NCBI GenBank assembly: GCA_009995545.1
Contig: JAACPI010000001.1
Location: 115,698-179,697, forward strand
DNA: 64,000 nt
Reading direction: 5' to 3'
DNA from: a bacterium
GTDB lineage: Bacteria; Patescibacteriota; WWE3; 2-01-FULL-39-13; JAACPI01
Shown here: in pieces, positions 4,774 to 54,649 of the stretch
Layout: each line of letters opens with the position of its first letter
Position numbering within the stretch: position 1 is the first letter of the stretch
The notes under the pieces: model-generated
Databases searched by the model: none
What the model was told of the DNA's origin: nothing
The model's input: the letters and a program-made list of their open reading frames with translations, nothing else
Position numbers and translations under genes: made by a program

Positions 4774-6217
4774 ATGACAGAAAAAAGAGAAAAAATTGTT
4801 TGCATAGTTGATAATTTCGCGGAAGTACCAATGCCTGAGGTTGGGGATGTTAAGCTACAAGGACGATTAGATGCTCTTTTACAAGAACAGGATTACGCCC
4901 AAATTTATGAGTTGGGGTCTACTAATCCCAGTGCCTACCCCTATGCAATAGTTTTAGCTTTTAATTTAGGCTACTTGGAATCTATATCTGGTCACCTAAA
5001 GTTCTTTTATCACAATGATATAGAACCTTCCTCGCTCACTGTTAAAAACGGAGGTGATTTAGCTGTGGTTGCTGCTGCTTATACCTCTTTTTATACTAGG
5101 TGGGGTAATAGAGACAACCATTGGTGCAATATGGGGGTTTTAACAGGTCCACGTATCCCCATTAATGAAGATTACTTTCCTAGAATTAATTTTGGTTCTG
5201 AAAAACTTGATCAAGAAATATTAGAACTACTGCAAAAGGTTAATGGGGTTACCTACCAACAAGCCCTGGATCCGGAATACCTTACTTTTTATAAACAACT
5301 GTCTTTTCTAAGTAGAAAACGTGCAATTTACCACGGGGTTTATCCCCAAGGGAAAACACGAGAGGAAGGAGTGGACTACGTATTAACCCATGCAGTTTGT
5401 GAGGCTTTAATTGCCCAGAGTCAACTCGAAGACCCCACTTTACAGGGTTATCGAAAAGATTTTGTTACAGGTCGTGCAAGAAGAGCCTACACCCTTGCCC
5501 AAAAAACTATGGAGAGTATCTATGGTTTTAATATACCTGATTTAGAGAATGGGGGTTTAGATCGTTTAGGAGAATCCCGTAGAATAAAGTATTTGGCTTA
5601 TTATCAGGAGGTAATTCAGCGACTTTTAGCTTATGACCCTGAAGATAGCCGGGTAATATCTAGGGATATGAGCAGCTGGTACCTTGATAAATCTACAAAA
5701 TGGAGGGATTTCTCAAGGGCAGTCAGGCCGTTAGCTACCTCTCTAGGTCCTTTTTGGTTTTATGCTGAGGATAATGTGCCAAAAGAGGTTAAGGATAAAG
5801 GGGGGGGGGTATCGTAAACGCAGAGAAGCCTATAACGATTGGTTTATGAACCGAATGAGGAAAGAGAAATCAGAATCTAGGAGAGAAGAGCTGCTTGCAA
5901 ATGCAAAAGGAGATATTGCAGTTTGGAATTCCCGATTTGCAGGCAAAGTTCCCTTCTTTATTCGAGGGGACAACGGTGAGCTAGAGGTTACTTTTGAAAT
6001 AGACTTACGCGAAGCGGAACTGTGCCTTGGTTCACCGCAGGAGCTGGGGAGAATTCAGGCCACGGTTAGAACATCCTTTGCTATTGATTCTTCTAGAAAA
6101 TCCAAGCTTGCCAAAATTTTACACCCTGACGCTCTAGGAATACCCGCCGAACTTGAGGAATCCTACGCTTTAGAACGAAAACTAAAGGAGGAGATTTTTA
6201 AAATCCGTAATATTTGA
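4774..6217 (+). pseudogene. GC-rich hypothetical gene split by a +1 frameshift at a G10 homopolymer (frame 1 ORF 4774-5817, frame 2 ORF 5762-6217); phase-variable or degraded
   Basis: The two overlapping ORFs change frame exactly at G10 (5800-5809). Local GC is about 42-46% against a window background of about 34%. No recognisable domain. Confidence 0.5.
5800..5809. repeat. G10 homopolymeric tract (slipped-strand candidate)
   Basis: Ten consecutive G at the frameshift point of the 4774-6217 gene. Confidence 0.9.
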
Positions 6218-12222: not shown

Positions 12223-12613
12223 AATTTTTCCTTCTTTTTTATTCTCTCTTTTATTTTTAGATTTAATCTTAAAGTTTGTATTTGTTAGGTGGGGGATGGT
12301 TACTATAAATAAAGGCATCTCTTTTTCATTATTTTCTAATTCTAATCTTACTTTTTCTCTCCACCTCGGTGCTCTTATTGTTCTAACTAATGGTTATTTT
12401 CTATTTTCTAGTAAAGCAACTTGGGCAGTTAATAAATTTTATCTTTTTTTAATTATACTGGCGGGATTTAGTAATTTTTTTGATCGAATTTTTTATGGTG
12501 GTGTAGTGGATTATATAAATCTCTATTTTTTTAAAAATAATTTAACGGATTTAGTAATTTTTTTGGGAGTTTGTGGTTTAATTTTGAATCAGTACATAAA
12601 ACCCTCAAAATAA
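12212..12613 (+). CDS. lspA: Lipoprotein signal peptidase (signal peptidase II)
   Basis: 'FDRIFYGGVVDYINLYFF...NLTDLVIFLGV' matches the LspA conserved region. Start chosen at the internal ATG at 12212, overlapping the dnaB stop by 11 nt; the longer ORF from 12134 is unlikely. Confidence 0.6.
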   Translation: MKVKIFPSFLFSLLFLDLILKFVFVRWGMVTINKGISFSLFSNSNLTFSLHLGALIVLTNGYFLFSSKATWAVNKFYLFLIILAGFSNFFDRIFYGGVVDYINLYFFKNNLTDLVIFLGVCGLILNQYIKPSK

Positions 12614-12725
12614 AACAGTTTAGCCGGTGACTGATGGCTAACTTATAATTATATGTTTATAATCTATACTATTGAGAACGGTACGGTCTCTTTTAAGAAA
12701 TTTATTTACTAGTTTAGGATAAAGA

Positions 12726-13628
12726 ATGATGGATTTAACAAAATTAATAGTCGAGGATAACCTTAATTTTTTTGCAGTAAACAAGCCAAAAGGTTTAATT
12801 GTTAATGTCTCCAATACAACTAGATCCGAAACCTTACAAGATTTAGTAAAAAAGCATATTGATCAGTCCTTAGATTATCATTTACAAATTCTTAATGTTT
12901 TAGAAAAAAAAGAAATTAAAGTTTTAAAAGAATCTAACTATGATAGTATTTCTAAATTGCTAATTAATGACCAGGTTAGAGAGGTGCTAAAGTCCTTAAT
13001 GGGTGTTTCGACTGAACTTATTAAAGAATTTACTGATAGAAATGGAATAGTCCATAGGTTAGATAAAGACACAAGTGGTGTTATATTGATTGCTAAGAAT
13101 GCTCCAGCCTTTAAAGAGCTAAAAAGTAAATTTGTAAAAAGAAGAGTCAGAAAAACATACTACGCAATAACCTTTGGTGATATTGTAAACACCTTAAAAG
13201 GTAATGACTTTATTCATGTAGATTTACCTTTAGGTAGAAATCCCAGACACCGAACTGAGTTTGCTATTGTTGCCACAGGTAGAAGTGCCGAAAGTTTTGT
13301 TTATGCAAGTAACCCTTACGAAATGCAAATTAGTGACTATAAAGAGTCAGCTAAAAAGAAAAAGGATAGCACTTTTTCCTGTGTTAAAGTTTTACCCAAG
13401 ACTGGAAGAACTCACCAGATAAGAGTTCACTTAAAAGCTTTAAATCATGAAATTTTAGGAGATAATACCTATATGGGTAAAAGTCAGAGTAAAGTAGCCA
13501 AAAAACTTTCTGCCCCGCTTATGTTACATGCCCACACTATTGAATTTAAATTTTTAACAAAAAGTTATAAACTTTCAGCTTCTTTTCCAAAGGAATTTGC
13601 TGAAGTTGTAAATAATATTTTTAAGTAG
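12726..13628 (+). CDS. RluA-family pseudouridine synthase
   Basis: Catalytic motif 'HRLDKDTSGVILIAKN', followed by 'TGRTHQIRVH'. Confidence 0.8.
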   Translation: MMDLTKLIVEDNLNFFAVNKPKGLIVNVSNTTRSETLQDLVKKHIDQSLDYHLQILNVLEKKEIKVLKESNYDSISKLLINDQVREVLKSLMGVSTELIKEFTDRNGIVHRLDKDTSGVILIAKNAPAFKELKSKFVKRRVRKTYYAITFGDIVNTLKGNDFIHVDLPLGRNPRHRTEFAIVATGRSAESFVYASNPYEMQISDYKESAKKKKDSTFSCVKVLPKTGRTHQIRVHLKALNHEILGDNTYMGKSQSKVAKKLSAPLMLHAHTIEFKFLTKSYKLSASFPKEFAEVVNNIFK

Positions 13629-13637
13629 TTAATTAAA

Positions 13638-15359
13638 ATGGATTACAGCCTGCTCATAGATTTAACCATTATATTATTCGGAGGTACTCTTGGGGGAATA
13701 ATAGCCACAAAGTTAAAACAACCCATTGTTGTTGGTTATATAGTTTCTGGATTACTTTTGGGATCATTAATACCTCATATTCGGGACGAGAGGGAGTTAA
13801 TAACCGTTATTGCTGAAATAGGGGTTTCTTTATTACTTTTTACTTTAGGGCTGGAATTTTCTTTAAATAGATTAAAGAGTGTAGGGAAGCCTGGAGTCTT
13901 GGGTGCAATAATTCAAATTCTTTTTATAATTTTAATATTTTTTGGTATTTTGCCTTCAATACTTAATATTGACTTTAATGTTGCCCTGTTTATTGGTGGG
14001 ATATTTGCTTTGTCGTCAACGGCAGTTGTTGCTAAAATTCTTACAGACAAGGGTGAGCTGGACAGTAGTCACGGGGATTTAATAATGGCTTGGTTAATTG
14101 TACAAGATATAGCTGTTGTCCCTTTGGCTTTAATTTTGCCGCAACTTGCTAGCAGCAACGGCTTTGAACTTATTCCTTTGCTTTTAACTACCGCAAAAAG
14201 TTTAGTGGCAATTTACCTTTTACTAATTTTAGGAAAAAAAACAGTTCCGTATTTGTTTAAAAGACTAGCACTATTTGATAACAGAGAACTCCTTTTAGTT
14301 AGTGCTTTTATGTTTTGTATAGGGGTTTCATTGGTGGCAAGTTTTTTGGGTTTATCTTTTGCTATTGGGGCTTTTTTGGCTGGACTTTTACTTTCGACTA
14401 GTGCAGTAAATCACGAGGTATTTACCGAAATTAGGCCCTTAAAAGACCTATTTAGTAGTGTGTTTTTTGTTTCTTTAGGGTTTTTAATTTCGCTGGGGGT
14501 TCTTTTTCACTACTTTTTTATTGCCTTAATGCTAGCGCTGTTAGTAATGATAATTAAAGTTTTAGTAATTTTAGTTTTAGTAATATTTTTTAATTATCAT
14601 TCTAAGTTAGCATTTTTAACTGCAGTTGCTCTTTTTCAAATTGGTGAGTTTAGTTTTATTTTGGCTAAAGTGGGTTTAGAGGCAAACATACTTTCAACTG
14701 AAATTTTTCAAATAGTAATTGCCTCTTCAATAATAACTATTTTACTTACCCCCGTTGCTTATAATTATGCCCCATCTGTATATAAAGGATTTAGAAATTT
14801 TGTAAAACAGTATGTTCCTAAATTTTACGATTTAATTTTTAACATAGCAGATAGTGACGCAAAAATGCCCAGACCCCGAAGATCTAAACTCAAAAACCAT
14901 ATGATTTTGGTAGGGTACGGGCGGGTAGGATCTTATATTGGTAAGGTTTTAAGTTTAACTGCAATACCTTATGTAGTTATAGATTTGCATTTTAGAACCT
15001 TGCAAGATTTACGAAAAAGGGGAGTATTTAGCATTTATGGCGACGCTATAAATAAAGATATTTTAAAATTAGCAAATATATCCCAAGCTAAGGGGGTAAT
15101 AATTGCTGTTCCAGATATTGTAACTAATGAGCTTATTTTAAATAATATTCGAAGTTTAAATCCAAGTGCCGAGGTTATAGTTAGAGCTCACCGACCTGAA
15201 GATATAGCTAAGCTTACCATAAGAGGGGTTAAACACATTATTGAGCCAGAGTTTGAGGCAAGTATGCAAATAGGGGAGAAGGTGCTTAAATTTTTTGGCA
15301 CAGAACGTAAAGAAATAAACGCTCTTTTAAGAAAGACGAGAGAAGATAGAAAGTACTAG
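13638..15359 (+). CDS. CPA2-family cation:proton antiporter (Kef-type) with C-terminal TrkA-N/RCK domain
   Basis: About 12 TM helices, then a Rossmann motif 'ILVGYGRVGSYIGKVL'. Confidence 0.75.
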   Translation: MDYSLLIDLTIILFGGTLGGIIATKLKQPIVVGYIVSGLLLGSLIPHIRDERELITVIAEIGVSLLLFTLGLEFSLNRLKSVGKPGVLGAIIQILFIILIFFGILPSILNIDFNVALFIGGIFALSSTAVVAKILTDKGELDSSHGDLIMAWLIVQDIAVVPLALILPQLASSNGFELIPLLLTTAKSLVAIYLLLILGKKTVPYLFKRLALFDNRELLLVSAFMFCIGVSLVASFLGLSFAIGAFLAGLLLSTSAVNHEVFTEIRPLKDLFSSVFFVSLGFLISLGVLFHYFFIALMLALLVMIIKVLVILVLVIFFNYHSKLAFLTAVALFQIGEFSFILAKVGLEANILSTEIFQIVIASSIITILLTPVAYNYAPSVYKGFRNFVKQYVPKFYDLIFNIADSDAKMPRPRRSKLKNHMILVGYGRVGSYIGKVLSLTAIPYVVIDLHFRTLQDLRKRGVFSIYGDAINKDILKLANISQAKGVIIAVPDIVTNELILNNIRSLNPSAEVIVRAHRPEDIAKLTIRGVKHIIEPEFEASMQIGEKVLKFFGTERKEINALLRKTREDRKY

Positions 15360-15382
15360 TTTTTTTGTCTTTAATTAACCTT

Positions 15383-16066
15383 TTACTCTTGTATGCCGAT
15401 TGAATCGGCAATTTCGTCGAGCATTTTTGTTGCAATCTCTGCAAGTTTCAAGGATTCTCTTAAATCTTGTGCTGTGGGTGACAAAAATCTACTACCCCAT
15501 TGTACCTCTAGATCTAAAATTCTCCCCATCCCAACCTGTCTAGAAGTAGCTACATCACTATAGATGGGAAATACATTCGGATCGTTGGGTACATGTTTAT
15601 CAATTACTAGGGTTTCGGGTTCACTGAATCCTGTATGAAGCAGCCAGGTTTTGTATGTACCTCACTGTCCGTAGATAAGCTGCATTGGTTGAGCAATTGC
15701 CTTCCCATTTTTGCCTAGTGTTACATAGGCATAAGCTTTTTTTAAATCTTTTTTGTTTTTTATCTCGATTATGACGCCCACTGCGGGGGATTCGTTATAT
15801 AAAGTGTCTATTAAGACCGCTTCAGGGAGGTAGGATTTATCCACGCCGTCCAACATAAATGATTCAAAATCTCCCCTGACAACAACCGCTTGTCCCTCTG
15901 TTCTAAGCTGTTGATTAGGAAAATCAAAATTCCTTGTTTCAAATAAATCTAGTAGTCTGCTTACTACTGGATGTTCAGAAACTCTATCTCTTGCTGTTTT
16001 ATACTCTGTTATTAATTGCGCATCTCTTTGTCTTCCTTCGTTAAAATAGCCGGGTGGTGGTGACAT
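15383..16066 (-). pseudogene. GC-rich foreign-looking gene with an in-frame TGA (15662-15664) followed by 92 more sense codons in the same frame; possible PD-(D/E)xK-like nuclease
   Basis: Manual reverse-complement translation shows the 134-aa ORF (…QLIYGQ*) continues in frame as 'GTYKTWLLHTGF…IADSIGIQE' to TAA at 15383-15385. GC is about 45%. The motif 'LIDTLYNESPAVGVIIEIK' (D…E-I-K) is nuclease-like; that assignment is weak. Confidence 0.4.
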
Positions 16067-16192
16067 AGTTTAAAATAAATTACATATTTTTTTACATACT
16101 CAATATAGTAAAAAAACTATAAGGTGTCAGTTTAGAATAGACTTAATCATGTTTAAATTATCTACTTACTTAAAGTTACTACTTTTGCAATA

Positions 16193-17224
16193 ATGGTAGT
16201 AATGCTTTTAACTATTTTAACTTTACTCCTTGGATTTGTTCTGCTAATTGGCGGAGCTAATTATTTAGTAAATGGGTCTTCTGCTATAGCTAAAAAACTA
16301 GGTATAAGTGAGTTGGTAATTGGTTTAACGGTTGTTGCTTTTGGCACATCCATGCCAGAGCTTGTAGTAAATATTATAGCAAGTTTTGAGGGAGCTAGCC
16401 AAATAGCTATTGGGAATGTTTTAGGTAGTAATGTATCTAATATTTTTTTAGTGTTGGGAGTTACTGCTCTTATTTACCCTTTAACAATTAAAAAAACAAC
16501 CGTAATAGGGGAGATACCTTTTGCCCTTTTTACAGTACTTTTGTTATTTGTTTTAGCTAACGATTCTCTTTTGCGATTTAAAAATGGTAATGGGGTGGGT
16601 ATTGATAGGGCAGATGGGCTAATATTGATTTTAGTTTTTAGCGTTTTCTTATATTACACTTTTGCAATTTCAAGATCTAGTAACAAAAATACCCCAAATT
16701 TTATAAAAAGATTTTTATCGTTAAATGGTGACACGGCCAAACAATTAATTGAGGATGTTTTGAATGTAAAAAAAGTTTCTTACTCAAAATCGGCGGGTCT
16801 AATACTGTTGGGTCTTTGTGGTTTAACTTTAGGTGGCAAAATAATTGTGGATGGTGCTGTTTCAATTTCACAGTCTTTAGGGTTAAGTCAGTTTGCAATT
16901 GGCGTAACTGTAGTGGCTGTTGGAACATCGTTACCTGAACTTGTCACTGGTGTTGTAGCTGCTTTAAAGAAAAAAAGTGATATTGCCATCGGAAACATTG
17001 TTGGTTCAAATATTTTCAATATTTTATGGATTTTAGGTTTAACCTCCATTATAAACCCCTTACCGTTTGATTTAAAAAATAATTTAGATATAGGTTTTAA
17101 CTTTTTAGCTACGCTTTTACTGATGCTTGGTTTAATGCTTAGTAAAAAACATATACTAGGAAGAGTTTGGGGAGCTGTATTCTTAGTTTCGTACGTAGTT
17201 TATATAACATTGCAATTTATATAA
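16193..17224 (+). CDS. CaCA-family Na+/Ca2+ exchanger (YrbG-like)
   Basis: Duplicated alpha-repeats 'GTSMPELVV' and 'GTSLPELVTG', with 'GNVLGSNVSNIFLVLGV' and 'GNIVGSNIFNILWILGL'. Confidence 0.75.
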   Translation: MVVMLLTILTLLLGFVLLIGGANYLVNGSSAIAKKLGISELVIGLTVVAFGTSMPELVVNIIASFEGASQIAIGNVLGSNVSNIFLVLGVTALIYPLTIKKTTVIGEIPFALFTVLLLFVLANDSLLRFKNGNGVGIDRADGLILILVFSVFLYYTFAISRSSNKNTPNFIKRFLSLNGDTAKQLIEDVLNVKKVSYSKSAGLILLGLCGLTLGGKIIVDGAVSISQSLGLSQFAIGVTVVAVGTSLPELVTGVVAALKKKSDIAIGNIVGSNIFNILWILGLTSIINPLPFDLKNNLDIGFNFLATLLLMLGLMLSKKHILGRVWGAVFLVSYVVYITLQFI

Positions 17225-19009: not shown

Positions 19010-19993
19010 TTATTGAATATTATCTATACTCATAAAACCTTTTTCAAGTTTGTTAGTTTGGTCTAAGAATTCTATCAACCCCTTGTATTCTCTTAAACCT
19101 CTTAATACTATGTCTAGCATATTGTATGTTGGTTGGTTTTCAGCTCCAGAAAATGGAGTATGAGTTATATTTATGATTTCACCAAATTTACTAACTGTAA
19201 TTCTTCCTACAGAATTTTCAGAACCGTTCTCCTTTTTTATCGCTTCCGCAATTAAGGTATTTTCCACAATGTCGATTCTGTAAAATAAACCAGGTTCTGC
19301 GTCGTCGTTAAACTCAATCTGAGGCATTTTCCACCCAATTTGATGTAGCTTATCCGATATTTGATTGTAAATATAGGGCCATGCTAATTCCTCTATAAGC
19401 TGTTCTCTCTCCTCCTCTTCTATTTTAGTAACTTCTATACTGTACCCTAAGTTGCCTGTAGTTATCTGGTGCACCATTAGCCATAAGTAGCCCATGTCAG
19501 ATCTAAAAGCTTGTGTAGTTTTATCAAAAGTAGTGTACTCTGGTGGCTCGTAGCTAGGGGGCATTTTTACTAAAAATCCATCTGAGGGGTTACAAGTCAC
19601 GTAATAAACAATATCCTCATCGTATTTAGTGTGAAGAGTGAGGCAGTGATACTGGTAAATAGGCTTCATTATTGTGATGCCTGTAATCTCTCTAGGACCC
19701 CTTTCAGCAAGTGTTAGGGTGATACTTTCATCTTCTGCGTTACCTACTTTATCAATTTTTAACCCAGCAAGTCCCCTTAGCCAATTATGTAGGATTCCTA
19801 TATCGTAAGTTTTTTCTACGAGCATAAACCTCTCCTCCGGACGTGGGATATCCGCAACCTGCATTTGCATTTGCTCTTTTCCTGCTGGAATCCAATTAAA
19901 TAGTTCGAGAGTTGTAAAAGTGTTAAGTTGTGGTTCTTCTAAAGCAGCAGTTACTATATCAATTTCGTCGAATATTGGTGTTCTATTGGTCAT
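19010..19993 (-). CDS. Hypothetical protein (327 aa), no recognisable domain
   Basis: Long ORF with coding-like composition, slightly GC-enriched. Divergent from 20104-21159. Confidence 0.5.
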   Translation of the reverse strand: MTNRTPIFDEIDIVTAALEEPQLNTFTTLELFNWIPAGKEQMQMQVADIPRPEERFMLVEKTYDIGILHNWLRGLAGLKIDKVGNAEDESITLTLAERGPREITGITIMKPIYQYHCLTLHTKYDEDIVYYVTCNPSDGFLVKMPPSYEPPEYTTFDKTTQAFRSDMGYLWLMVHQITTGNLGYSIEVTKIEEEEREQLIEELAWPYIYNQISDKLHQIGWKMPQIEFNDDAEPGLFYRIDIVENTLIAEAIKKENGSENSVGRITVSKFGEIINITHTPFSGAENQPTYNMLDIVLRGLREYKGLIEFLDQTNKLEKGFMSIDNIQ

Positions 19994-24276: not shown

Positions 24277-26718
24277 ATGATTTATTTTATAGTTTTAATT
24301 GTAACTTTAGTAGTAATTGCCGCAGGCTATCTTTCTTTCCAAAAGGTACAAAAATTAAATAGTAAAAGTATACTTCCCTCAAACCTAGTAGTTTTAAATG
24401 TTCGTGTCCCAAAAGCTATTGAAAAGGAGGAGGTAGAAAATGCCTCGACTGCAGCAGAAAGAATGTTCTCTAGCTTACACGGTATTTTAAATAGTGCCCA
24501 GAAAAGATCCGAGGAGGTTATAAATTTAGAAATTTACTCTTCTAAGTCAGGTATAAGCTTTTATGTGGTTATACCCGAAGGGATAAAAAGCTTTGTAGAA
24601 AATCAAATATACGCTCAGTACAAAGGAGCTCAGATTACTGTTAAAGAAGACTATTTATCAGAGTTTAATTTAGAGAATAAAAAATCTAAATTAGTAAATC
24701 TAACCTTATCAAAAAAAAGTTTTTTCCCCTTAAAAACGTTTTTAGAATTCGATGTGGACCCTTTGTCTTCGGTTACGGCAGCCCTCTCTGAGGTTAAGGG
24801 TGAAGATAAGATTGTACTGCAACTCTCCGTTTTACCTCTGGCTGACTCTTGGCAAGAGGAGGGGCATGAGTACACCACTGCTTTAAAAGCGGGTACTTTA
24901 AACTCTCCTGGAATTTTTGGGATAATATTTTCTGCTCTAATGAAAGGGTTTAATAACTTATTATTTGGTTTTTCTGAAGAATCTTCTAAGGCGGTTTCTG
25001 GAAAGTCTTTGTCTGTTGTAGAAGAAAAGCATATCCAAATAATTGAGGAAAAACTAGCAAAAATGGGTTTTGACTCCCAGATAAAAATATTTGTAAGTTC
25101 AGATGATGACGCATCCTCTAGCTCTTATCTTAGGTCTGTAATAGGTAGTTTTAGACAATACACTAGTGCACAACATAATGCTTTAATTCAGGGATCTTTA
25201 TCTTACGAGGATAGCTTTGCCTTGGACTTTTTAAAGTCACGAACGTTGATTTCTGAGGACTCTTACATTTTTAATACAGAGGAGCTTGCTAGTATTTACC
25301 ATTTTCCCTCCGGTGTTGTTGCAACTCCAAACATTGCTTGGACAAACTCTAAAAAAGGTGAACCACCTTTAAATTTACCTATAGAAGGCGATGTGAATTT
25401 TTTTGGTACCACTAACTTTAGAGACAAAGAAGTAAAATTTGGGATTAAAAACAACCAAGATAGAATGAGGCACATGTACTTTGTAGGTAAAACTGGAACA
25501 GGTAAATCTACAGTTTTTGAAAACATGATTATTCAAGACATTATTGATGGTAGGGGTTGCTGTTATATCGATCCACACGGTGAAACTATAGAAAAAATAC
25601 TTTCAAGAGTTCCTAAAGATCGAATTGACGACGTAGTTTTAATCGATCCTTCTAATGCAGATAGGCCCCCCGCAATTAATATTATGGAGTGTCCCGACCC
25701 TTCACAAAAAAATCTTTTATCTTCGAGCATACTTTCTGCTTTTAAATTACAGTTTGGTTACAGCTGGGGTCCGAGATTAGAATATCTTTTAAATTTTGCC
25801 CTACTTACCTTAACTGAAATCGAAGGTACATCTCTTTTGGGTATTACAAGACTTTTAACTGATAAGAACTATAGAAAATATATATTACAAAAAACAGATG
25901 ATCCTGTGGTTCTAAGATTTTGGAATGAGGAGTACGCTGAGCTAGAGCAGAGCTTTGGAGCAGAGGCTGTAAGCCCTATTCAAAATAAAGTTGGTAGACT
26001 ATTGTCCTCAACTACCTTAAGAAATATCTTTGGACAAAGAAATTCTACAATTCAGTTTGACGAAATAATGAACGAAAAGAAAATTTTACTTGTTAATTTG
26101 AGTAAGGGAAAAATTGGAGACGATAACGCAAACTTAATGGGTTCATTAATAGTTAACCGACTAACCTTTTATGCAATGCAAAGGGCTAGTTTATTAGAAA
26201 AAGACCGAGTGCCCTTTTATTTGTATGTAGATGAGTTTCAGAACTTTGCAACAGAGAGTTTTATTACAATATTGAGCGAGGCCCGAAAATACGGCCTATC
26301 TTTACATTTAACTCACCAGTACACTGCTCAGCTTCCAGAACCCATTAGAGATGCTATTTTGGGTAATGTGGGTACAATGATAGCACTAACTCTTGGAGCT
26401 CAAGACGCCTCCACATTAGCACCCGAATTTATGCCCACCTTTGACGAGACTGACCTAATTAGCCAGGAAAAATATAATTTTTACTGTAAACTTCAAATAG
26501 ATGGAGCTACTAGTAAGCCATTTTCTGGTAGGGGATTGCCTCCAGTGTATTTAGAAGAGTCTAACTACAGTAAAGAAATAAAGGCTCTATCCTCGGAAAA
26601 GTACGGTAGAGACAAAGCTTATGTACAAGAAAAAATTAAAATTTGGTTGAATAGACCTTTTGATGTCGGTATGGCAATAGCCGAAAATTATCGAAAAACA
26701 GCCAATAATAAATCTTAG
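24277..26718 (+). CDS. Membrane-anchored P-loop NTPase of the TraD/TraG/VirD4 (type IV coupling protein) / FtsK-HerA superfamily
   Basis: N-terminal TM helix. Walker A 'FVGKTGTGKST', Walker B 'FYLYVDEFQNF', C-terminal 'HLTHQYTAQL'. 813 aa. Confidence 0.5.
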   Translation: MIYFIVLIVTLVVIAAGYLSFQKVQKLNSKSILPSNLVVLNVRVPKAIEKEEVENASTAAERMFSSLHGILNSAQKRSEEVINLEIYSSKSGISFYVVIPEGIKSFVENQIYAQYKGAQITVKEDYLSEFNLENKKSKLVNLTLSKKSFFPLKTFLEFDVDPLSSVTAALSEVKGEDKIVLQLSVLPLADSWQEEGHEYTTALKAGTLNSPGIFGIIFSALMKGFNNLLFGFSEESSKAVSGKSLSVVEEKHIQIIEEKLAKMGFDSQIKIFVSSDDDASSSSYLRSVIGSFRQYTSAQHNALIQGSLSYEDSFALDFLKSRTLISEDSYIFNTEELASIYHFPSGVVATPNIAWTNSKKGEPPLNLPIEGDVNFFGTTNFRDKEVKFGIKNNQDRMRHMYFVGKTGTGKSTVFENMIIQDIIDGRGCCYIDPHGETIEKILSRVPKDRIDDVVLIDPSNADRPPAINIMECPDPSQKNLLSSSILSAFKLQFGYSWGPRLEYLLNFALLTLTEIEGTSLLGITRLLTDKNYRKYILQKTDDPVVLRFWNEEYAELEQSFGAEAVSPIQNKVGRLLSSTTLRNIFGQRNSTIQFDEIMNEKKILLVNLSKGKIGDDNANLMGSLIVNRLTFYAMQRASLLEKDRVPFYLYVDEFQNFATESFITILSEARKYGLSLHLTHQYTAQLPEPIRDAILGNVGTMIALTLGAQDASTLAPEFMPTFDETDLISQEKYNFYCKLQIDGATSKPFSGRGLPPVYLEESNYSKEIKALSSEKYGRDKAYVQEKIKIWLNRPFDVGMAIAENYRKTANNKS

Positions 26719-30668: not shown

Positions 30669-31364
30669 TTAGAGTTCAAAATCTAAAATCATTGGTAAGT
30701 GATCTGAGATTTCTATATAGGGAACTTTAAAATGCTTAACTTTTATTTTAGAATCCGTAAAAGTGTAATCTGCATAAAGCTGTTTTTTCCCGGGATGAAT
30801 TTTCCAAGATTTTTTATTTCTGGTGGTTTGTATTTTATATTCGTTTACTAAGTTTATAAATCCTTTTTGCTCAAACATTCTTATACTTTCGGTTTGGGGC
30901 AATAAATTAAAGTCTCCGCCAATTATTATTGGATCAGTTAGTTTACTACAATGTTTTAGAATGGTTTTTGATTGCTGTAGTCTTTCGTCTGTGTCCAGTT
31001 TGGTGCCTGGAAAAGCTACTCCATGAACATTTATTATATTAAAGTTTTTATTTTTATAATTTAGTGTCAGGTTTATGGCTAGTCCAATATTTAAAAAGCT
31101 ATTGTCCATTAAAGAGGTTATATCTAAGGTTTTTATAGGTTTTTTAACTAATATGGCGTTAGAAAAACTACTATTTTTATCTATATATTTAAAAACAGTG
31201 TAGCTTTTAAACTCTTGTAAGTATTTGAAGATAACTTTTTGAATATTGTAGTGGCACTCTTGTAAGCAAAAAATATCTGTAGTTGGAGCTAAAGCTTGTA
31301 GAAATTTTCTTATTCCTATTGGGTCGATTTCGTTGTTTGCAGTGTTTAAGAATATAACTTTCAC
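30669..31364 (-). CDS. Endonuclease/exonuclease/phosphatase (EEP) family protein
   Basis: 'IFCLQEC', 'IINVHG', 'IIGGDFN', 'EISDHLPMILDFEL' are EEP-fold motifs. Confidence 0.75.
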   Translation of the reverse strand: MKVIFLNTANNEIDPIGIRKFLQALAPTTDIFCLQECHYNIQKVIFKYLQEFKSYTVFKYIDKNSSFSNAILVKKPIKTLDITSLMDNSFLNIGLAINLTLNYKNKNFNIINVHGVAFPGTKLDTDERLQQSKTILKHCSKLTDPIIIGGDFNLLPQTESIRMFEQKGFINLVNEYKIQTTRNKKSWKIHPGKKQLYADYTFTDSKIKVKHFKVPYIEISDHLPMILDFEL

Positions 31365-31376
31365 AGACGTCGTATA

Positions 31377-31724
31377 TTAAATTTTGCTTCTATTTAAATA
31401 CGTTATGTAGAATTCTAACTGAGTTTTCATGACTTCGTGTAAATTGGATTTCTGTGTTCTATAGAATTCCCCTATCCCTTCTTCGGATACTTCTATTATA
31501 TCTGTATTTTCCTTATCTATAAGTTTTGTGATCTCTACTTCGCTATAAACTAAGAAATTTATTCTAGAAGACTTAGGATATTCATAGTACATACCTATAA
31601 TTTTTACGTTATTAATATTTTGTGCGTCAGTTTCTTCTTCTAGTTCTCGTATAGTCTCCTTTAAAATATACTTAGGGAATTCCTCGTCTGTTATTTCAGT
31701 CTTGTAGTCTATCACTCCGCCCAA
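31377..31724 (-). CDS. Hypothetical protein (TTG start); possibly the C-terminal half of a gene frameshifted at a homopolymer
   Basis: 115-aa ORF containing a Nudix-box-like 'ETIRELEEETD'. Its reading frame stays open about 25 codons upstream, overlapping the preceding ORF in another frame. Confidence 0.4.
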   Translation of the reverse strand: MGGVIDYKTEITDEEFPKYILKETIRELEEETDAQNINNVKIIGMYYEYPKSSRINFLVYSEVEITKLIDKENTDIIEVSEEGIGEFYRTQKSNLHEVMKTQLEFYITYLNRSKI

Positions 31725-31744
31725 ATTATCAAATGTATTTTTAC

Positions 31745-32089
31745 CTATGGCAACATTAGAAGATTTTTTAACAAAATAATAGGAATTTTTTTAGGGTTTT
31801 TGGCTATTGTACTTATACCTGTGGAGTAGCTACCGGGTATATAATAATTTTCTTGTCTAGCCCAAAGGTAGGTTTTATAGTCAGTCTTATTTATATTAAT
31901 CACATATTTCCCATTTTCAAATTCTACCCCAGAGCAACCATAAGACACTCCGCTAAAAGCATTTGGTGATTTTTTAATTATTTCTTCCCATAGATGGTCT
32001 TTCTCGGTGACCTGTTCCTTGTTTAGCTGGGGGAATTTATGTGAAATCTGAAATTGTAGGTTTTCTTGATCCGAAAATATGAAGATCAT
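31745..32089 (-). CDS. Hypothetical protein; possibly the N-terminal half of the same frameshifted gene
   Basis: 114-aa ORF ending 20 nt from the next ORF's start. A T7/A7 homopolymer lies at 31785-31791 in the overlap region. Confidence 0.4.
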   Translation of the reverse strand: MIFIFSDQENLQFQISHKFPQLNKEQVTEKDHLWEEIIKKSPNAFSGVSYGCSGVEFENGKYVININKTDYKTYLWARQENYYIPGSYSTGISTIAKNPKKIPIILLKNLLMLP

Positions 32090-53131: not shown

Positions 53132-53641
53132 ATGCCAAACTCATTTTATTCGAATAGCTTAGGTTTTACTTTAATAGAACTTTTAATAACTATTTCTATT
53201 ATGGCTATACTGTCTGCTATGGTTTTTCCTGGTTTTGCAGGATTTGCCGATAATCAACAGGTACAACAACAAACTTTAAACGTAGTCTCCGACGCAGAAA
53301 TTTCCAAAAACAAAGCTTTAGCTGGAGCCTACTCTACTGGATCTACTACTAAGTCTGCTTACTGGGGAATTATTTTTTGTAGCAATAGTAATAATGACGA
53401 ATATACTTTAACTGCTTTCGACGACACCGGATCTCCTTTAACTGGAATTTCTACTTCAGATACTAAACTTGTAAAGCTTCAAGGTGGGGTGTCATTTAAT
53501 TGTGGTACTACAGAAAAAAGTTGGGTGTTCGAAAGATTAACAGGGGCACCTTTTTTAGACGAGGGGGATGTTAAAATCAGTAAAGGGACCCGGGCAAGAA
53601 CTATATTATTGGAGCCCTCCGGTGCTATTTCCATACAATGA
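53132..53641 (+). CDS. Prepilin-type minor pilin
   Basis: '…SNSLG|FTLIELLITISIMAIL'. Confidence 0.7.
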   Translation: MPNSFYSNSLGFTLIELLITISIMAILSAMVFPGFAGFADNQQVQQQTLNVVSDAEISKNKALAGAYSTGSTTKSAYWGIIFCSNSNNDEYTLTAFDDTGSPLTGISTSDTKLVKLQGGVSFNCGTTEKSWVFERLTGAPFLDEGDVKISKGTRARTILLEPSGAISIQ

Positions 53642-53642
53642 T

Positions 53643-54089
53643 ATGTTTATAAAAAAGTATAAAGCACAAACTTTAGTTGAGGTTACAATGTCTATAGGAA
53701 TTGCAGTTATTGTAATTGTGGCTTTAGTAGTTTTAGCAACTAGTGCCCTTCGAAATGCACAAGAATCTTTACGTAAAAGTGAAAGTAGTAAGTTTGCTAA
53801 TGCAGGTATAGAAGCAGTTATTTTTTATAAGAATGTAAAGGGCTTTTCCGGAGTAGCTGGTGGAAATTATCAAATAGATAATGCCGGGGGAACTTCCGTT
53901 TTAACCCCTGTATCTACTCCAATAGACGGATTTGTAACTATAGCATCCCCCAGTGGGTTAGTATACCAAAGAAAAATTGAAGTTACTAAAGCCGGCACAA
54001 CAATGGATGTTACAAGCACTGTTAGGTGGGAAAGTACCCAAGGTACTAAGCAATCGCAAGTTAACCGAAAAATTACAGATTGGCGATGA
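53643..54089 (+). CDS. Prepilin-like minor pilin (degenerate signal)
   Basis: 'MFIKKYKA|QTLVEVTMSIGIAVIVIVALVV' with Glu at +5; start trimmed from 53568. Confidence 0.55.
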   Translation: MFIKKYKAQTLVEVTMSIGIAVIVIVALVVLATSALRNAQESLRKSESSKFANAGIEAVIFYKNVKGFSGVAGGNYQIDNAGGTSVLTPVSTPIDGFVTIASPSGLVYQRKIEVTKAGTTMDVTSTVRWESTQGTKQSQVNRKITDWR

Positions 54090-54649
54090 AAAATATAAAT
54101 AACAAAAAACGAGGTTTTACTTTAGTCGAGTTACTACTTTCGATCGGAATTATGGGTATAGTTGTAGGTATTCTAGGAGATGTTTTTGCAACCGTGATTA
54201 GAGCATATCGACGTGCTGAGGTTTTCGGCTTAACTGAAAAAAATGGAAACTTTATATTAACTACAATTGAGCAAGACATTAGGGCTTCTATCGGTGTCAC
54301 TGTTGACGAAAGTACTAATAAAATTACTATTATTAAACCTACGTCATCTGGTACCGAGTCAATAGCATATCAGTTTACGTTTTGTAACGGCAGTGACAGT
54401 GGGGCTGTAACTAGAAATGGAAATGACTTACTTACTTCTGACAACCCTGTATCAAACTCCACTTTATACCTAGAGGCATTTCCAAACGGCAACCCTACAG
54501 GTTTAGAGCCTATAAAAAGAATAAATGATACAGCTAAATACGATATAGTTTATATATCTTTTGTTTTGTCAGATAAATGCGATCCTACTGTACAGAATAA
54601 CGAAGGGTACTATCAGACAGCTGTCAATTTACGGGGAGGTATACAGTAG
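54080..54649 (+). CDS. Prepilin-type minor pilin
   Basis: '…NNKKRG|FTLVELLLSIGIMGIVVGIL'. Confidence 0.7.
   Translation: MAMKNINNKKRGFTLVELLLSIGIMGIVVGILGDVFATVIRAYRRAEVFGLTEKNGNFILTTIEQDIRASIGVTVDESTNKITIIKPTSSGTESIAYQFTFCNGSDSGAVTRNGNDLLTSDNPVSNSTLYLEAFPNGNPTGLEPIKRINDTAKYDIVYISFVLSDKCDPTVQNNEGYYQTAVNLRGGIQ

What the first reader, a model, noticed from the sequence alone, without database searches (positions are those of the whole stretch)
15383..16066. Foreign-composition gene with an in-frame TGA followed by 92 in-frame sense codons (nonsense mutation, recoding, or origin from a UGA-recoded donor)
Manual translation of the minus strand shows the 134-aa ORF ends at TGA (15662-15664), then continues uninterrupted in the same frame ('GTYKTWLLHTGFSEPETLVIDKHVPND…LAEIATKMLDEIADSIGIQE') to a TAA at 15383. 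The whole 684-bp unit is about 45% GC against about 34% background. TGA is a bona fide stop elsewhere in this window, so this is not the resident code. Options are a young pseudogene, programmed readthrough or selenocysteine (no SECIS-like hairpin noticed), or a gene acquired from a UGA-recoding lineage or phage (code 4 or code 25). A 'ID…VGVIIEIK' motif hints at a PD-(D/E)xK nuclease.
Basis: seen in the sequence. Interest (0 to 1): 0.55.

Follow-up and report, generated by a model that had tools for sequence, protein, structure and literature searches.

The report
Orphan gene split by one TGA
A small gene found only in this one uncultured groundwater-type (Patescibacteria) bacterium is cut in two by a single premature TGA stop codon; it is most likely an ordinary, recently broken gene, not a case of an unusual genetic code.

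Summary
On the minus strand, ATG 16066 opens 134 codons that end at TGA 15662-15664. The same frame then runs 92 more sense codons to TAA 15383-15385. The extension is not chance: shuffle P = 0.0018, and its in-frame coding signal (0.199 nat/codon) equals that of the first half (0.198) and of resident genes. The TGA is identical in independent assemblies, so it is not a sequencing error. The host is a standard-code Patescibacteria genome with no in-frame TGA in about 15,700 resident codons and with ATGA stop/start overlaps. The composition claim is overstated: the unit is 39.9% GC, not 45%, against 34.3% for the window, and several resident genes match it. The 227-codon product is a complete orphan. 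An exhaustive HMMER search of 1.84 billion representatives found only its own two fragments, and Pfam, PHROGs, NCBIfam, PADLOC, PDB, phage, plasmid and IMG/VR searches found nothing. It sits in a variable slot where the closest relatives carry a second Kef-type antiporter gene. No SECIS, tRNA or phage context was found. Best reading: a lineage-specific, probably acquired gene with a young nonsense mutation. Origin from a UGA-recoded donor, or leaky readthrough, cannot be excluded and cannot be tested without homologues. The nuclease hint has no support.

The parts
15383..16066 (-). Whole interrupted coding unit: 134 codons, TGA, 92 codons, TAA (227 sense/TGA codons plus stop)
   Evidence: Translation. 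It is the best of six frames under the resident codon model (-4.005 against -4.32 to -4.74). It is identical in L001 and L002.
15665..16066 (-). N-terminal part, 134 codons, start ATG 16064-16066 one codon after an upstream in-frame TAA. Annotated at NCBI as hypothetical protein GW755_00625 (NCT55328.1).
   Evidence: Coding-frame advantage is 0.198 nat/codon.
15662..15664 (-). In-frame TGA (codon 135), context CAG TGA GGT
   Evidence: Conserved in L001, L002 and L003.
15386..15661 (-). 92 in-frame sense codons after the TGA. There is no ATG/GTG/TTG in the first 44 of them.
   Evidence: Shuffle P = 0.0018. Coding-frame advantage is 0.199 overall and 0.197 for the first 44 codons.
15383..15529 (-). 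48-codon ORF from the first in-frame ATG to the TAA, called as a separate gene (P0002, NCT55327.1, GW755_00620) by annotation pipelines
16102..16130 (-). Sigma-70-like promoter match (CTGACA-17-TATATT, 10 of 12) about 36 nt upstream of the ATG. Consensus match only.
   Evidence: The count in the region is no higher than in shuffles, so this is weak.
15360..16192 (.). Lineage-specific 833-bp segment between the Kef-type antiporter gene (stop at 15359) and the Na/Ca exchanger gene (start at 16193). The closest relatives carry a second Kef-type gene here, and other relatives carry nothing or other orphan genes.
   Evidence: No remnant of the second Kef gene is detectable (tblastn E = 3.8).

Best explanation
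This is a lineage-specific orphan protein-coding gene of 227 codons. It was probably acquired, or at least evolved elsewhere as a real gene. It lies on the minus strand in a hypervariable slot between a Kef-type K+/H+ antiporter gene and a Na/Ca exchanger gene of a standard-code Patescibacteria (Microgenomates-like) chromosome. A single point change has put TGA at codon 135. The resident ribosome therefore terminates there and makes, at most, a 134-residue truncated product. The downstream 92 codons are still open only because the change is recent. In short, it is a young pseudogene or truncated allele.

Shown: the single frame, the coding signature on both sides of the TGA, the real TGA, the standard resident code, the orphan status, and the lineage-specific position.

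Inferred: that the TGA arose by mutation in this lineage (for example TGG>TGA, a G>A transition favoured in an AT-rich genome, or AGA/GGA>TGA), and that the full-length protein is no longer made.
For: - One continuous frame is broken only by the TGA.
- The in-frame codon signal is equal in both halves and in the 44 start-less codons after the TGA, and typical of resident genes.
- The chance of an open 92-codon extension is 0.0018.
- The TGA is present in all independent assemblies.
- The resident code is standard: no in-frame TGA in 46,992 nt of resident genes, and ATGA overlaps are present.
- No recoding apparatus or signal was found: no SECIS-like fold (z = -0.85), no Rfam hit, no tRNA in the window.
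- The segment is absent from all relatives sampled, whose Kef1 proteins are 59-82% identical. Their slot holds different content, which is typical of dispensable accessory genes that decay.
- Codon usage sits at the edge of the resident range and GC is 39.9% against 34.3%, which fits a non-ameliorated newcomer.
Against: - No homologue exists to show a sense codon at the equivalent position, so the mutation itself is not demonstrated.
- No allele without the TGA was found in any assembly. The 'intact ancestor' is therefore hypothetical.
- All available copies are nearly clonal (0-2 differences per 6.4 kb), so there is no signal of relaxed or retained selection on the downstream part.
- The 134-aa product could itself be functional.
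Confidence: 0.6

Rival explanations
1. The gene was acquired from a donor that reads UGA as sense: a code-25 Gracilibacteria or Absconditabacteria relative, a code-25 phage, or a code-4 phage. The TGA was an ordinary Gly or Trp codon in the donor and became a stop on arrival in a standard-code host.
For: - The segment is lineage-specific with raised GC and atypical codon usage.
- The host belongs to the same superphylum as the code-25 lineages.
- Code-25 CPR bacteria and TGA-recoded phages are documented (10.1101/2021.08.26.457843).
- One TGA in 227 codons is a plausible count for such a donor (my own estimate).
Against: - No homologue was found in 1.84 billion representative proteins, in 5.8 billion clusters, or in the phage, IMG/VR and plasmid collections. 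No donor can therefore be named.
- There are no phage or mobile-element genes next to the segment and no flanking repeats.
- There is no suppressor tRNA in the window.
- A single TGA is explained equally well by one mutation.
Confidence: 0.17
2. The TGA is leaky and functional. Near-cognate decoding (for example by tRNA-Trp) gives a minor 226-residue isoform alongside a major 134-residue product, as in the phage Q-beta coat/A1 readthrough.
For: - The downstream frame is fully intact and looks coding.
- The TGA is fixed in every assembly.
- UGA is the leakiest bacterial stop (general knowledge).
Against: - No stimulatory structure was found (z = -0.85).
- There is no conservation evidence, because there are no homologues.
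- Fixation is uninformative in a near-clonal sample.
- Programmed readthrough of chromosomal bacterial genes is rare (general knowledge).
Confidence: 0.1
3. These are two separate genuine genes, as annotated: a 134-aa protein ending at a true TGA stop and a 48-aa protein starting at ATG 15529. They happen to lie in the same frame.
For: - Gene callers and NCBI annotate it this way.
- Adjacent same-frame genes occur elsewhere in the window.
Against: - The 44 codons between the TGA and the ATG have no stop and no canonical start, and they carry the same in-frame coding signal (0.197) as real genes.
- A 132-nt stop-free, coding-like spacer in exactly this frame is unexpected for two independent genes.
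Confidence: 0.08
4. It is a selenoprotein gene: the UGA is decoded as selenocysteine through a SECIS hairpin.
For: Only the in-frame UGA itself.
Against: - The 131 nt around and downstream of the UGA (35 nt before it and 92 nt after) fold no better than shuffles.
- There is no Rfam match, SECIS families included.
- There is no tRNA-Sec in the window.
- There are no Cys codons and no Cys-containing homologues.
- Patescibacteria are not known to carry Sec machinery (general knowledge).
- The rest of the genome was not available to check for selA/B/D.
Confidence: 0.01

Closest known systems
Nonsense-interrupted accessory (ORFan) genes, i.e. young bacterial pseudogenes
   Same: A single premature stop in an otherwise intact, coding-looking frame. 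The gene is lineage-specific, sits in a variable chromosomal slot, and has atypical composition. Annotation pipelines split it into two 'hypothetical proteins'.
   Different: No intact orthologue is available to prove the disruption. The whole family is known only from this one near-clonal population.
UGA-to-Gly (code 25) genes of Gracilibacteria/Absconditabacteria and their phages; UGA-to-Trp (code 4) recoded phages (Borges et al., 10.1101/2021.08.26.457843)
   Same: In-frame TGA within a coding frame, in a CPR/Patescibacteria setting.
   Different: The resident genome uses TGA as a stop. Only one gene and one codon are affected. There is no suppressor tRNA, no phage context and no homologue in any recoded genome.
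Leaky-UGA readthrough extensions (for example phage Q-beta A1 protein)
   Same: A UGA followed by a long in-frame coding extension.
   Different: There is no evidence of conservation, of a stimulatory context, or of expression of the extended form.
PD-(D/E)xK nuclease superfamily
   Same: A D-x13-E-x-K string (LID87...IIE101-I-K103) on two predicted adjacent beta strands.
   Different: No profile match and no structural match. The models are of very low confidence. The motif alone does not define membership.

Membership tests
Gene interrupted by a nonsense mutation (young pseudogene) | Both sides of the stop lie in one frame and both carry a coding signature | tested here: met
   0.198 and 0.199 nat/codon in frame; shuffle P = 0.0018.
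Gene interrupted by a nonsense mutation (young pseudogene) | The stop is real, not an assembly or sequencing error | tested here: met
   Identical TGA in JGI, Logan, ENA and NCBI assemblies.
Gene interrupted by a nonsense mutation (young pseudogene) | Intact homologues carry a sense codon at the equivalent position | not testable with these tools
   No homologue exists in any collection searched.
Gene from a UGA-recoded genome (code 4 or code 25) | Homologues in recoded lineages, with TGA aligned to Trp or Gly columns | tested here: not met
   Zero homologues in 1.84 billion representatives and in the phage and IMG/VR collections. Absence of data does not prove absence of a donor.
Gene from a UGA-recoded genome (code 4 or code 25) | The surrounding genome or element also uses in-frame TGA, or carries a UGA suppressor tRNA | tested here: not met
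   No in-frame TGA in resident genes. No tRNA in the 64-kb window. Neighbouring genes are chromosomal core genes.
Bacterial selenoprotein gene | SECIS hairpin immediately downstream of the UGA | tested here: not met
   Fold z-score -0.85. No Rfam match even at E <= 5.
Bacterial selenoprotein gene | selA/selB/selC/selD present in the genome | not testable with these tools
   Only the 64-kb window is available. It holds no tRNA.
Programmed stop-codon readthrough | Conservation of the stop and of the downstream extension across diverged homologues, or a stimulatory RNA element | tested here: inconclusive
   There are no diverged homologues. No significant structure was found. All copies are near-identical.
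PD-(D/E)xK nuclease superfamily | Profile or structural match to the alpha-beta-beta-beta-alpha-beta core, with D and (D/E)xK on strands 2 and 3 | tested here: inconclusive
   No Pfam, NCBIfam, PHROG or PADLOC hit at E <= 1. PDB phmmer best E = 2.1. AF2 pLDDT 35.5 and 43.1. Foldseek best E = 0.17, to an NTF2-like domain. The motif string is present, and a post-hoc regex matches only 1 of 57 resident ORFs.

The most novel reading that the evidence does not exclude
The TGA is an original sense codon. The gene would then be a recent transfer from an unsampled UGA-recoding CPR bacterium or phage into a standard-code Patescibacteria chromosome, or it would still be expressed full-length through leaky UGA decoding. 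Either way it would be a natural record of gene flow, or of translation, across a genetic-code boundary.
Probability: 0.2. Interest if true: 0.5.

Novelty: new member of a known kind. Interest (0 to 1): 0.15.

Why it matters
As it stands, it matters little. It is one orphan gene with one premature stop in an uncultured bacterium, and annotation pipelines have already (mis)called it as two hypothetical proteins.

It is a useful small annotation correction: GW755_00625 and GW755_00620 are one interrupted gene. It also illustrates a hypervariable slot downstream of the Kef-type antiporter gene in this Patescibacteria lineage.

It would become interesting only if a donor using UGA as a sense codon were found. 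That would document transfer across a genetic-code barrier within the CPR.

Tried and rejected
**Homologue searches that found nothing**
- The word-indexed search of 5.8 billion clusters and the exhaustive HMMER search of 1.84 billion representatives found only the gene's own two fragments.
- Pfam, PHROGs, NCBIfam and PADLOC gave no family at E <= 1.
- PDB phmmer gave only noise.
- Nothing was found in the phage collection by DNA or protein, in plasmids, or in IMG/VR.
- The metagenome contigs and genome-contig scans, by peptide pattern and by a 30-nt DNA pattern with NNN at the stop, found nothing. They did not even find the source genome, so those collections do not hold it.

**Structure**
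- AF2 single-sequence models of the 227-aa and 134-aa products had pLDDT 35.5 and 43.1 and are unusable.
- Foldseek against the PDB gave a best E of 0.17 with TM about 0.3, which is not interpretable.

**Ideas tested and rejected**
- The segment is not a decayed remnant of the second Kef gene seen in relatives (tblastn E = 3.8).
- The neighbouring orphan ORF 19010-19993 is not a paralogue (BLASTP E = 2.1).
- No flanking direct or inverted repeats mark a mobile element; only short AT-rich chance matches appear.
- The GTG overlapping the TGA (A-GTG-A) is not a coupled restart. By reading, that frame hits a stop after 14 codons and is not the frame of the extension.
- The low-coverage variant L003 has 6 differences in the unit (1 synonymous, 5 not) and 1 in the flank. 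At 1.3x coverage this is not distinguishable from sequencing error.

Full report
**1. Observation**

Reading the minus strand, an ATG at 16064-16066 lies one codon after an upstream in-frame TAA. It opens 134 codons that end in TGA at 15662-15664. The same frame then continues for 92 sense codons to TAA at 15383-15385.

The first canonical start codon after the TGA is the ATG at 15529, 44 codons downstream.

The composition figure is not exact:
- The unit is 39.9% GC (39.3% before and 40.9% after the TGA) against 34.3% for the window.
- That is the 95.5th percentile of 684-nt windows.
- Resident genes average 34.6 +/- 3.2%, and several reach 39.5-43.7%.

**2. Is the extension more than chance?**

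Yes, on four counts:
- Only 0.18% of shuffles of the 276-nt extension are free of in-frame stops, and its other five frames carry 2-8 stops.
- Among the 68 long ORFs of the window, the median read-on after the stop is 6 codons. Every longer in-frame read-on is just the next gene. I checked this directly only for 30669-31790, where the downstream EEP-family gene probably starts at a non-ATG codon.
- A codon model trained on 42 resident genes prefers the reading frame over the best alternative frame by 0.198 nat/codon in the N-terminal part and 0.199 in the extension. It gives 0.197 in the 44 codons that lack any start codon. Resident 92-codon chunks give 0.179 +/- 0.069.
- GC1 > GC2 > GC3 holds in both halves.

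Both halves are therefore, or very recently were, one coding sequence.

**3. Is the TGA real, and what is the resident code?**

The 134-aa product (P0001 = NCBI NCT55328.1, GW755_00625) is indexed in 57 blocks of the assembly collection. The DNA is identical across the whole unit in a JGI metagenome and in a Logan assembly. A low-coverage ENA contig also keeps the TGA. It is not a sequencing error.

The resident code is standard:
- The 46,992 nt of long resident ORFs contain no in-frame TGA.
- Five of 57 long ORFs end in TGA, with only 2-7 codons to the next stop.
- Two of these form ATGA stop/start overlaps, at 1027-1030 and 54086-54089.
- One matches its Pfam profile to the last position.

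**4. What is the protein?**

It is a complete orphan:
- The word-indexed search of 5.8 billion clusters returned only itself.
- An exhaustive HMMER pass over 1.84 billion representatives returned only the 134-aa and 48-aa fragments of this same locus.
- Pfam, PHROGs, NCBIfam, PADLOC, PDB sequences, GenBank phages (DNA and protein), PLSDB plasmids and IMG/VR gave nothing.
- Single-sequence AlphaFold models are unusable (pLDDT 35.5 and 43.1). Foldseek gives no significant match (best E = 0.17, to an NTF2-like domain).

The 'LID...VGVIIEIK' string remains only a motif. A regex I designed after seeing it is rare in resident proteins (1 of 57), but that test is post hoc. No profile or fold evidence supports a PD-(D/E)xK nuclease.

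**5. Genomic setting**

The flanking Kef-type antiporter identifies the host as a Patescibacteria (CPR) bacterium, with named hits in Shapirobacteria and Microgenomates. I fetched the syntenic loci of relatives whose Kef1 is 59-82% identical. The order RluD - Kef1 - [slot] - (Na/Ca exchanger) - RpsB - Tsf is conserved, but the slot varies:
- The three closest relatives carry a second 560-566-aa Kef-type paralogue exactly there.
- Two others have nothing.
- One lacks the exchanger too.
- Two carry other orphan genes.

None has anything similar to the unit (tblastn). The 833-bp segment 15360-16192 shows no remnant of the second Kef gene. No flanking repeats, phage genes or tRNA mark a mobile element.

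The unit's codon usage lies at the lower edge of the resident range: -3.95/-3.96 against -3.80 +/- 0.06, with a resident minimum of -3.955. The segment is thus lineage-specific and mildly atypical. That fits a recent acquisition from an unsampled source, but 'foreign' is not proven by composition.

**6. Recoding signals**

The 131 nt around the TGA fold no better than shuffles (z = -0.85). Rfam finds nothing at gathering thresholds in the window, and only noise at E <= 5 in the locus. ARAGORN finds no tRNA in the 64 kb. The unit has no Cys codons, two TGG, ten AGA, five GGA and no CGN codons. One-step ancestors of the TGA could be TGG, AGA, GGA, TTA or TCA, and nothing decides among them.

**7. 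Explanation**

The most economical reading (about 0.6) is a 227-codon accessory gene of unknown function that suffered one nonsense change. It now yields at most a 134-residue product, and the downstream frame is still open because the event is young.

What is shown: one frame, coding signal on both sides, a real TGA, a standard resident code, orphan status, and a lineage-specific position.

What is inferred: that the TGA is a mutation in this lineage, and that the full-length product is lost.

Rivals:
- **A donor that read UGA as sense (about 0.17).** Code-25 CPR bacteria and TGA-recoded phages exist (10.1101/2021.08.26.457843), but no donor homologue can be found.
- **Functional leaky readthrough (about 0.1).** There is no signal and no conservation data.
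- **Two independent genes, as annotated (about 0.08).** The coding-like, start-less 44-codon linker argues against this.
- **Selenocysteine (about 0.01).**

The population data cannot discriminate among these. All copies are near-clonal, with 0-2 differences per 6.4 kb. The one variant contig has 1.3x coverage, with 6 differences in the unit (5 non-synonymous) and 1 in the flank.

**8. Comparison with known kinds and verdict**

The locus behaves like the common case of an accessory or ORFan gene caught early in decay and split by annotators into two hypothetical proteins. It fails the tests available for a selenoprotein gene. It also fails those for a gene embedded in a recoded genome or element. 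Membership in the PD-(D/E)xK superfamily is untested in any meaningful way.

Novelty is limited to a new orphan family and a small annotation correction. Interest is low (0.15). It would rise only if a UGA-sense donor or a readthrough product were demonstrated.

Noticed in passing
window 19010-19993 (-): A second minus-strand orphan gene (327 aa, about 37% GC overall, with 300-nt windows of 0.38-0.40). It has no Pfam, PHROG, NCBIfam or PADLOC family. Its only database hit is a fragment of itself. It is absent from the syntenic position after tsf in all relatives, and it is not similar to the TGA-interrupted unit.
   Followed up: partly
window 15360-16192 versus L004 7748-9448, L007 7686-9368, L008 5961-7643: The slot downstream of the Kef-type antiporter gene is hypervariable in this lineage. 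The closest relatives carry a tandem second Kef-type paralogue (560-566 aa). Others carry nothing, or two unrelated orphan genes (L012 7595-8953).
   Followed up: yes
window 12613-12726 versus L004 1192-5081, L007 1181-5062: Between lspA and rluD, the closest relatives carry four or five extra genes: an unknown gene, an HbpS-like gene, an unknown gene of about 370 aa, a GAF-HisKA sensor kinase and a response regulator. All are missing from the window, which points to a lineage-specific deletion or streamlining.
   Followed up: no
window 4774-6217 (+): This is the most GC-rich stretch of the window (684-nt windows up to 45.5%). It holds a 347-aa ORF (40.4% GC) and an overlapping 151-aa ORF (43.7% GC, ending in TGA). 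Neither has a Pfam hit. It is compositionally more deviant than the finding itself.
   Followed up: no
window, whole: TGA is a rare stop (5 of 57 long ORFs, against TAA 35 and TAG 17). Two of the five form ATGA overlaps, at 1027-1030 and 54086-54089. There is no tRNA gene and no Rfam family hit anywhere in the 64 kb.
   Followed up: yes
window 53132-54649 (+): Three consecutive small genes. Two carry the N-terminal methylation (type IV pilin-like) motif, and the genes overlap each other.
   Followed up: no
window 24277-26718 (+); L009 10648-13107; L010 10221-12668: An 813-aa TraG/TrwB/HerA-like coupling-ATPase homologue (DUF8128 in relatives) is conserved in synteny across this lineage, apparently as a chromosomal core gene.
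   Followed up: no
L003 474-1113 (ENA ERZ17986939, 1.3x coverage): This is the only sequence variant of the unit. It has six substitutions in 640 nt (1 synonymous, 5 non-synonymous, 2 of them downstream of the TGA) against one in the 473-nt flank. The TGA is retained. It could be a strain variant under relaxed constraint or plain read error.
   Followed up: partly
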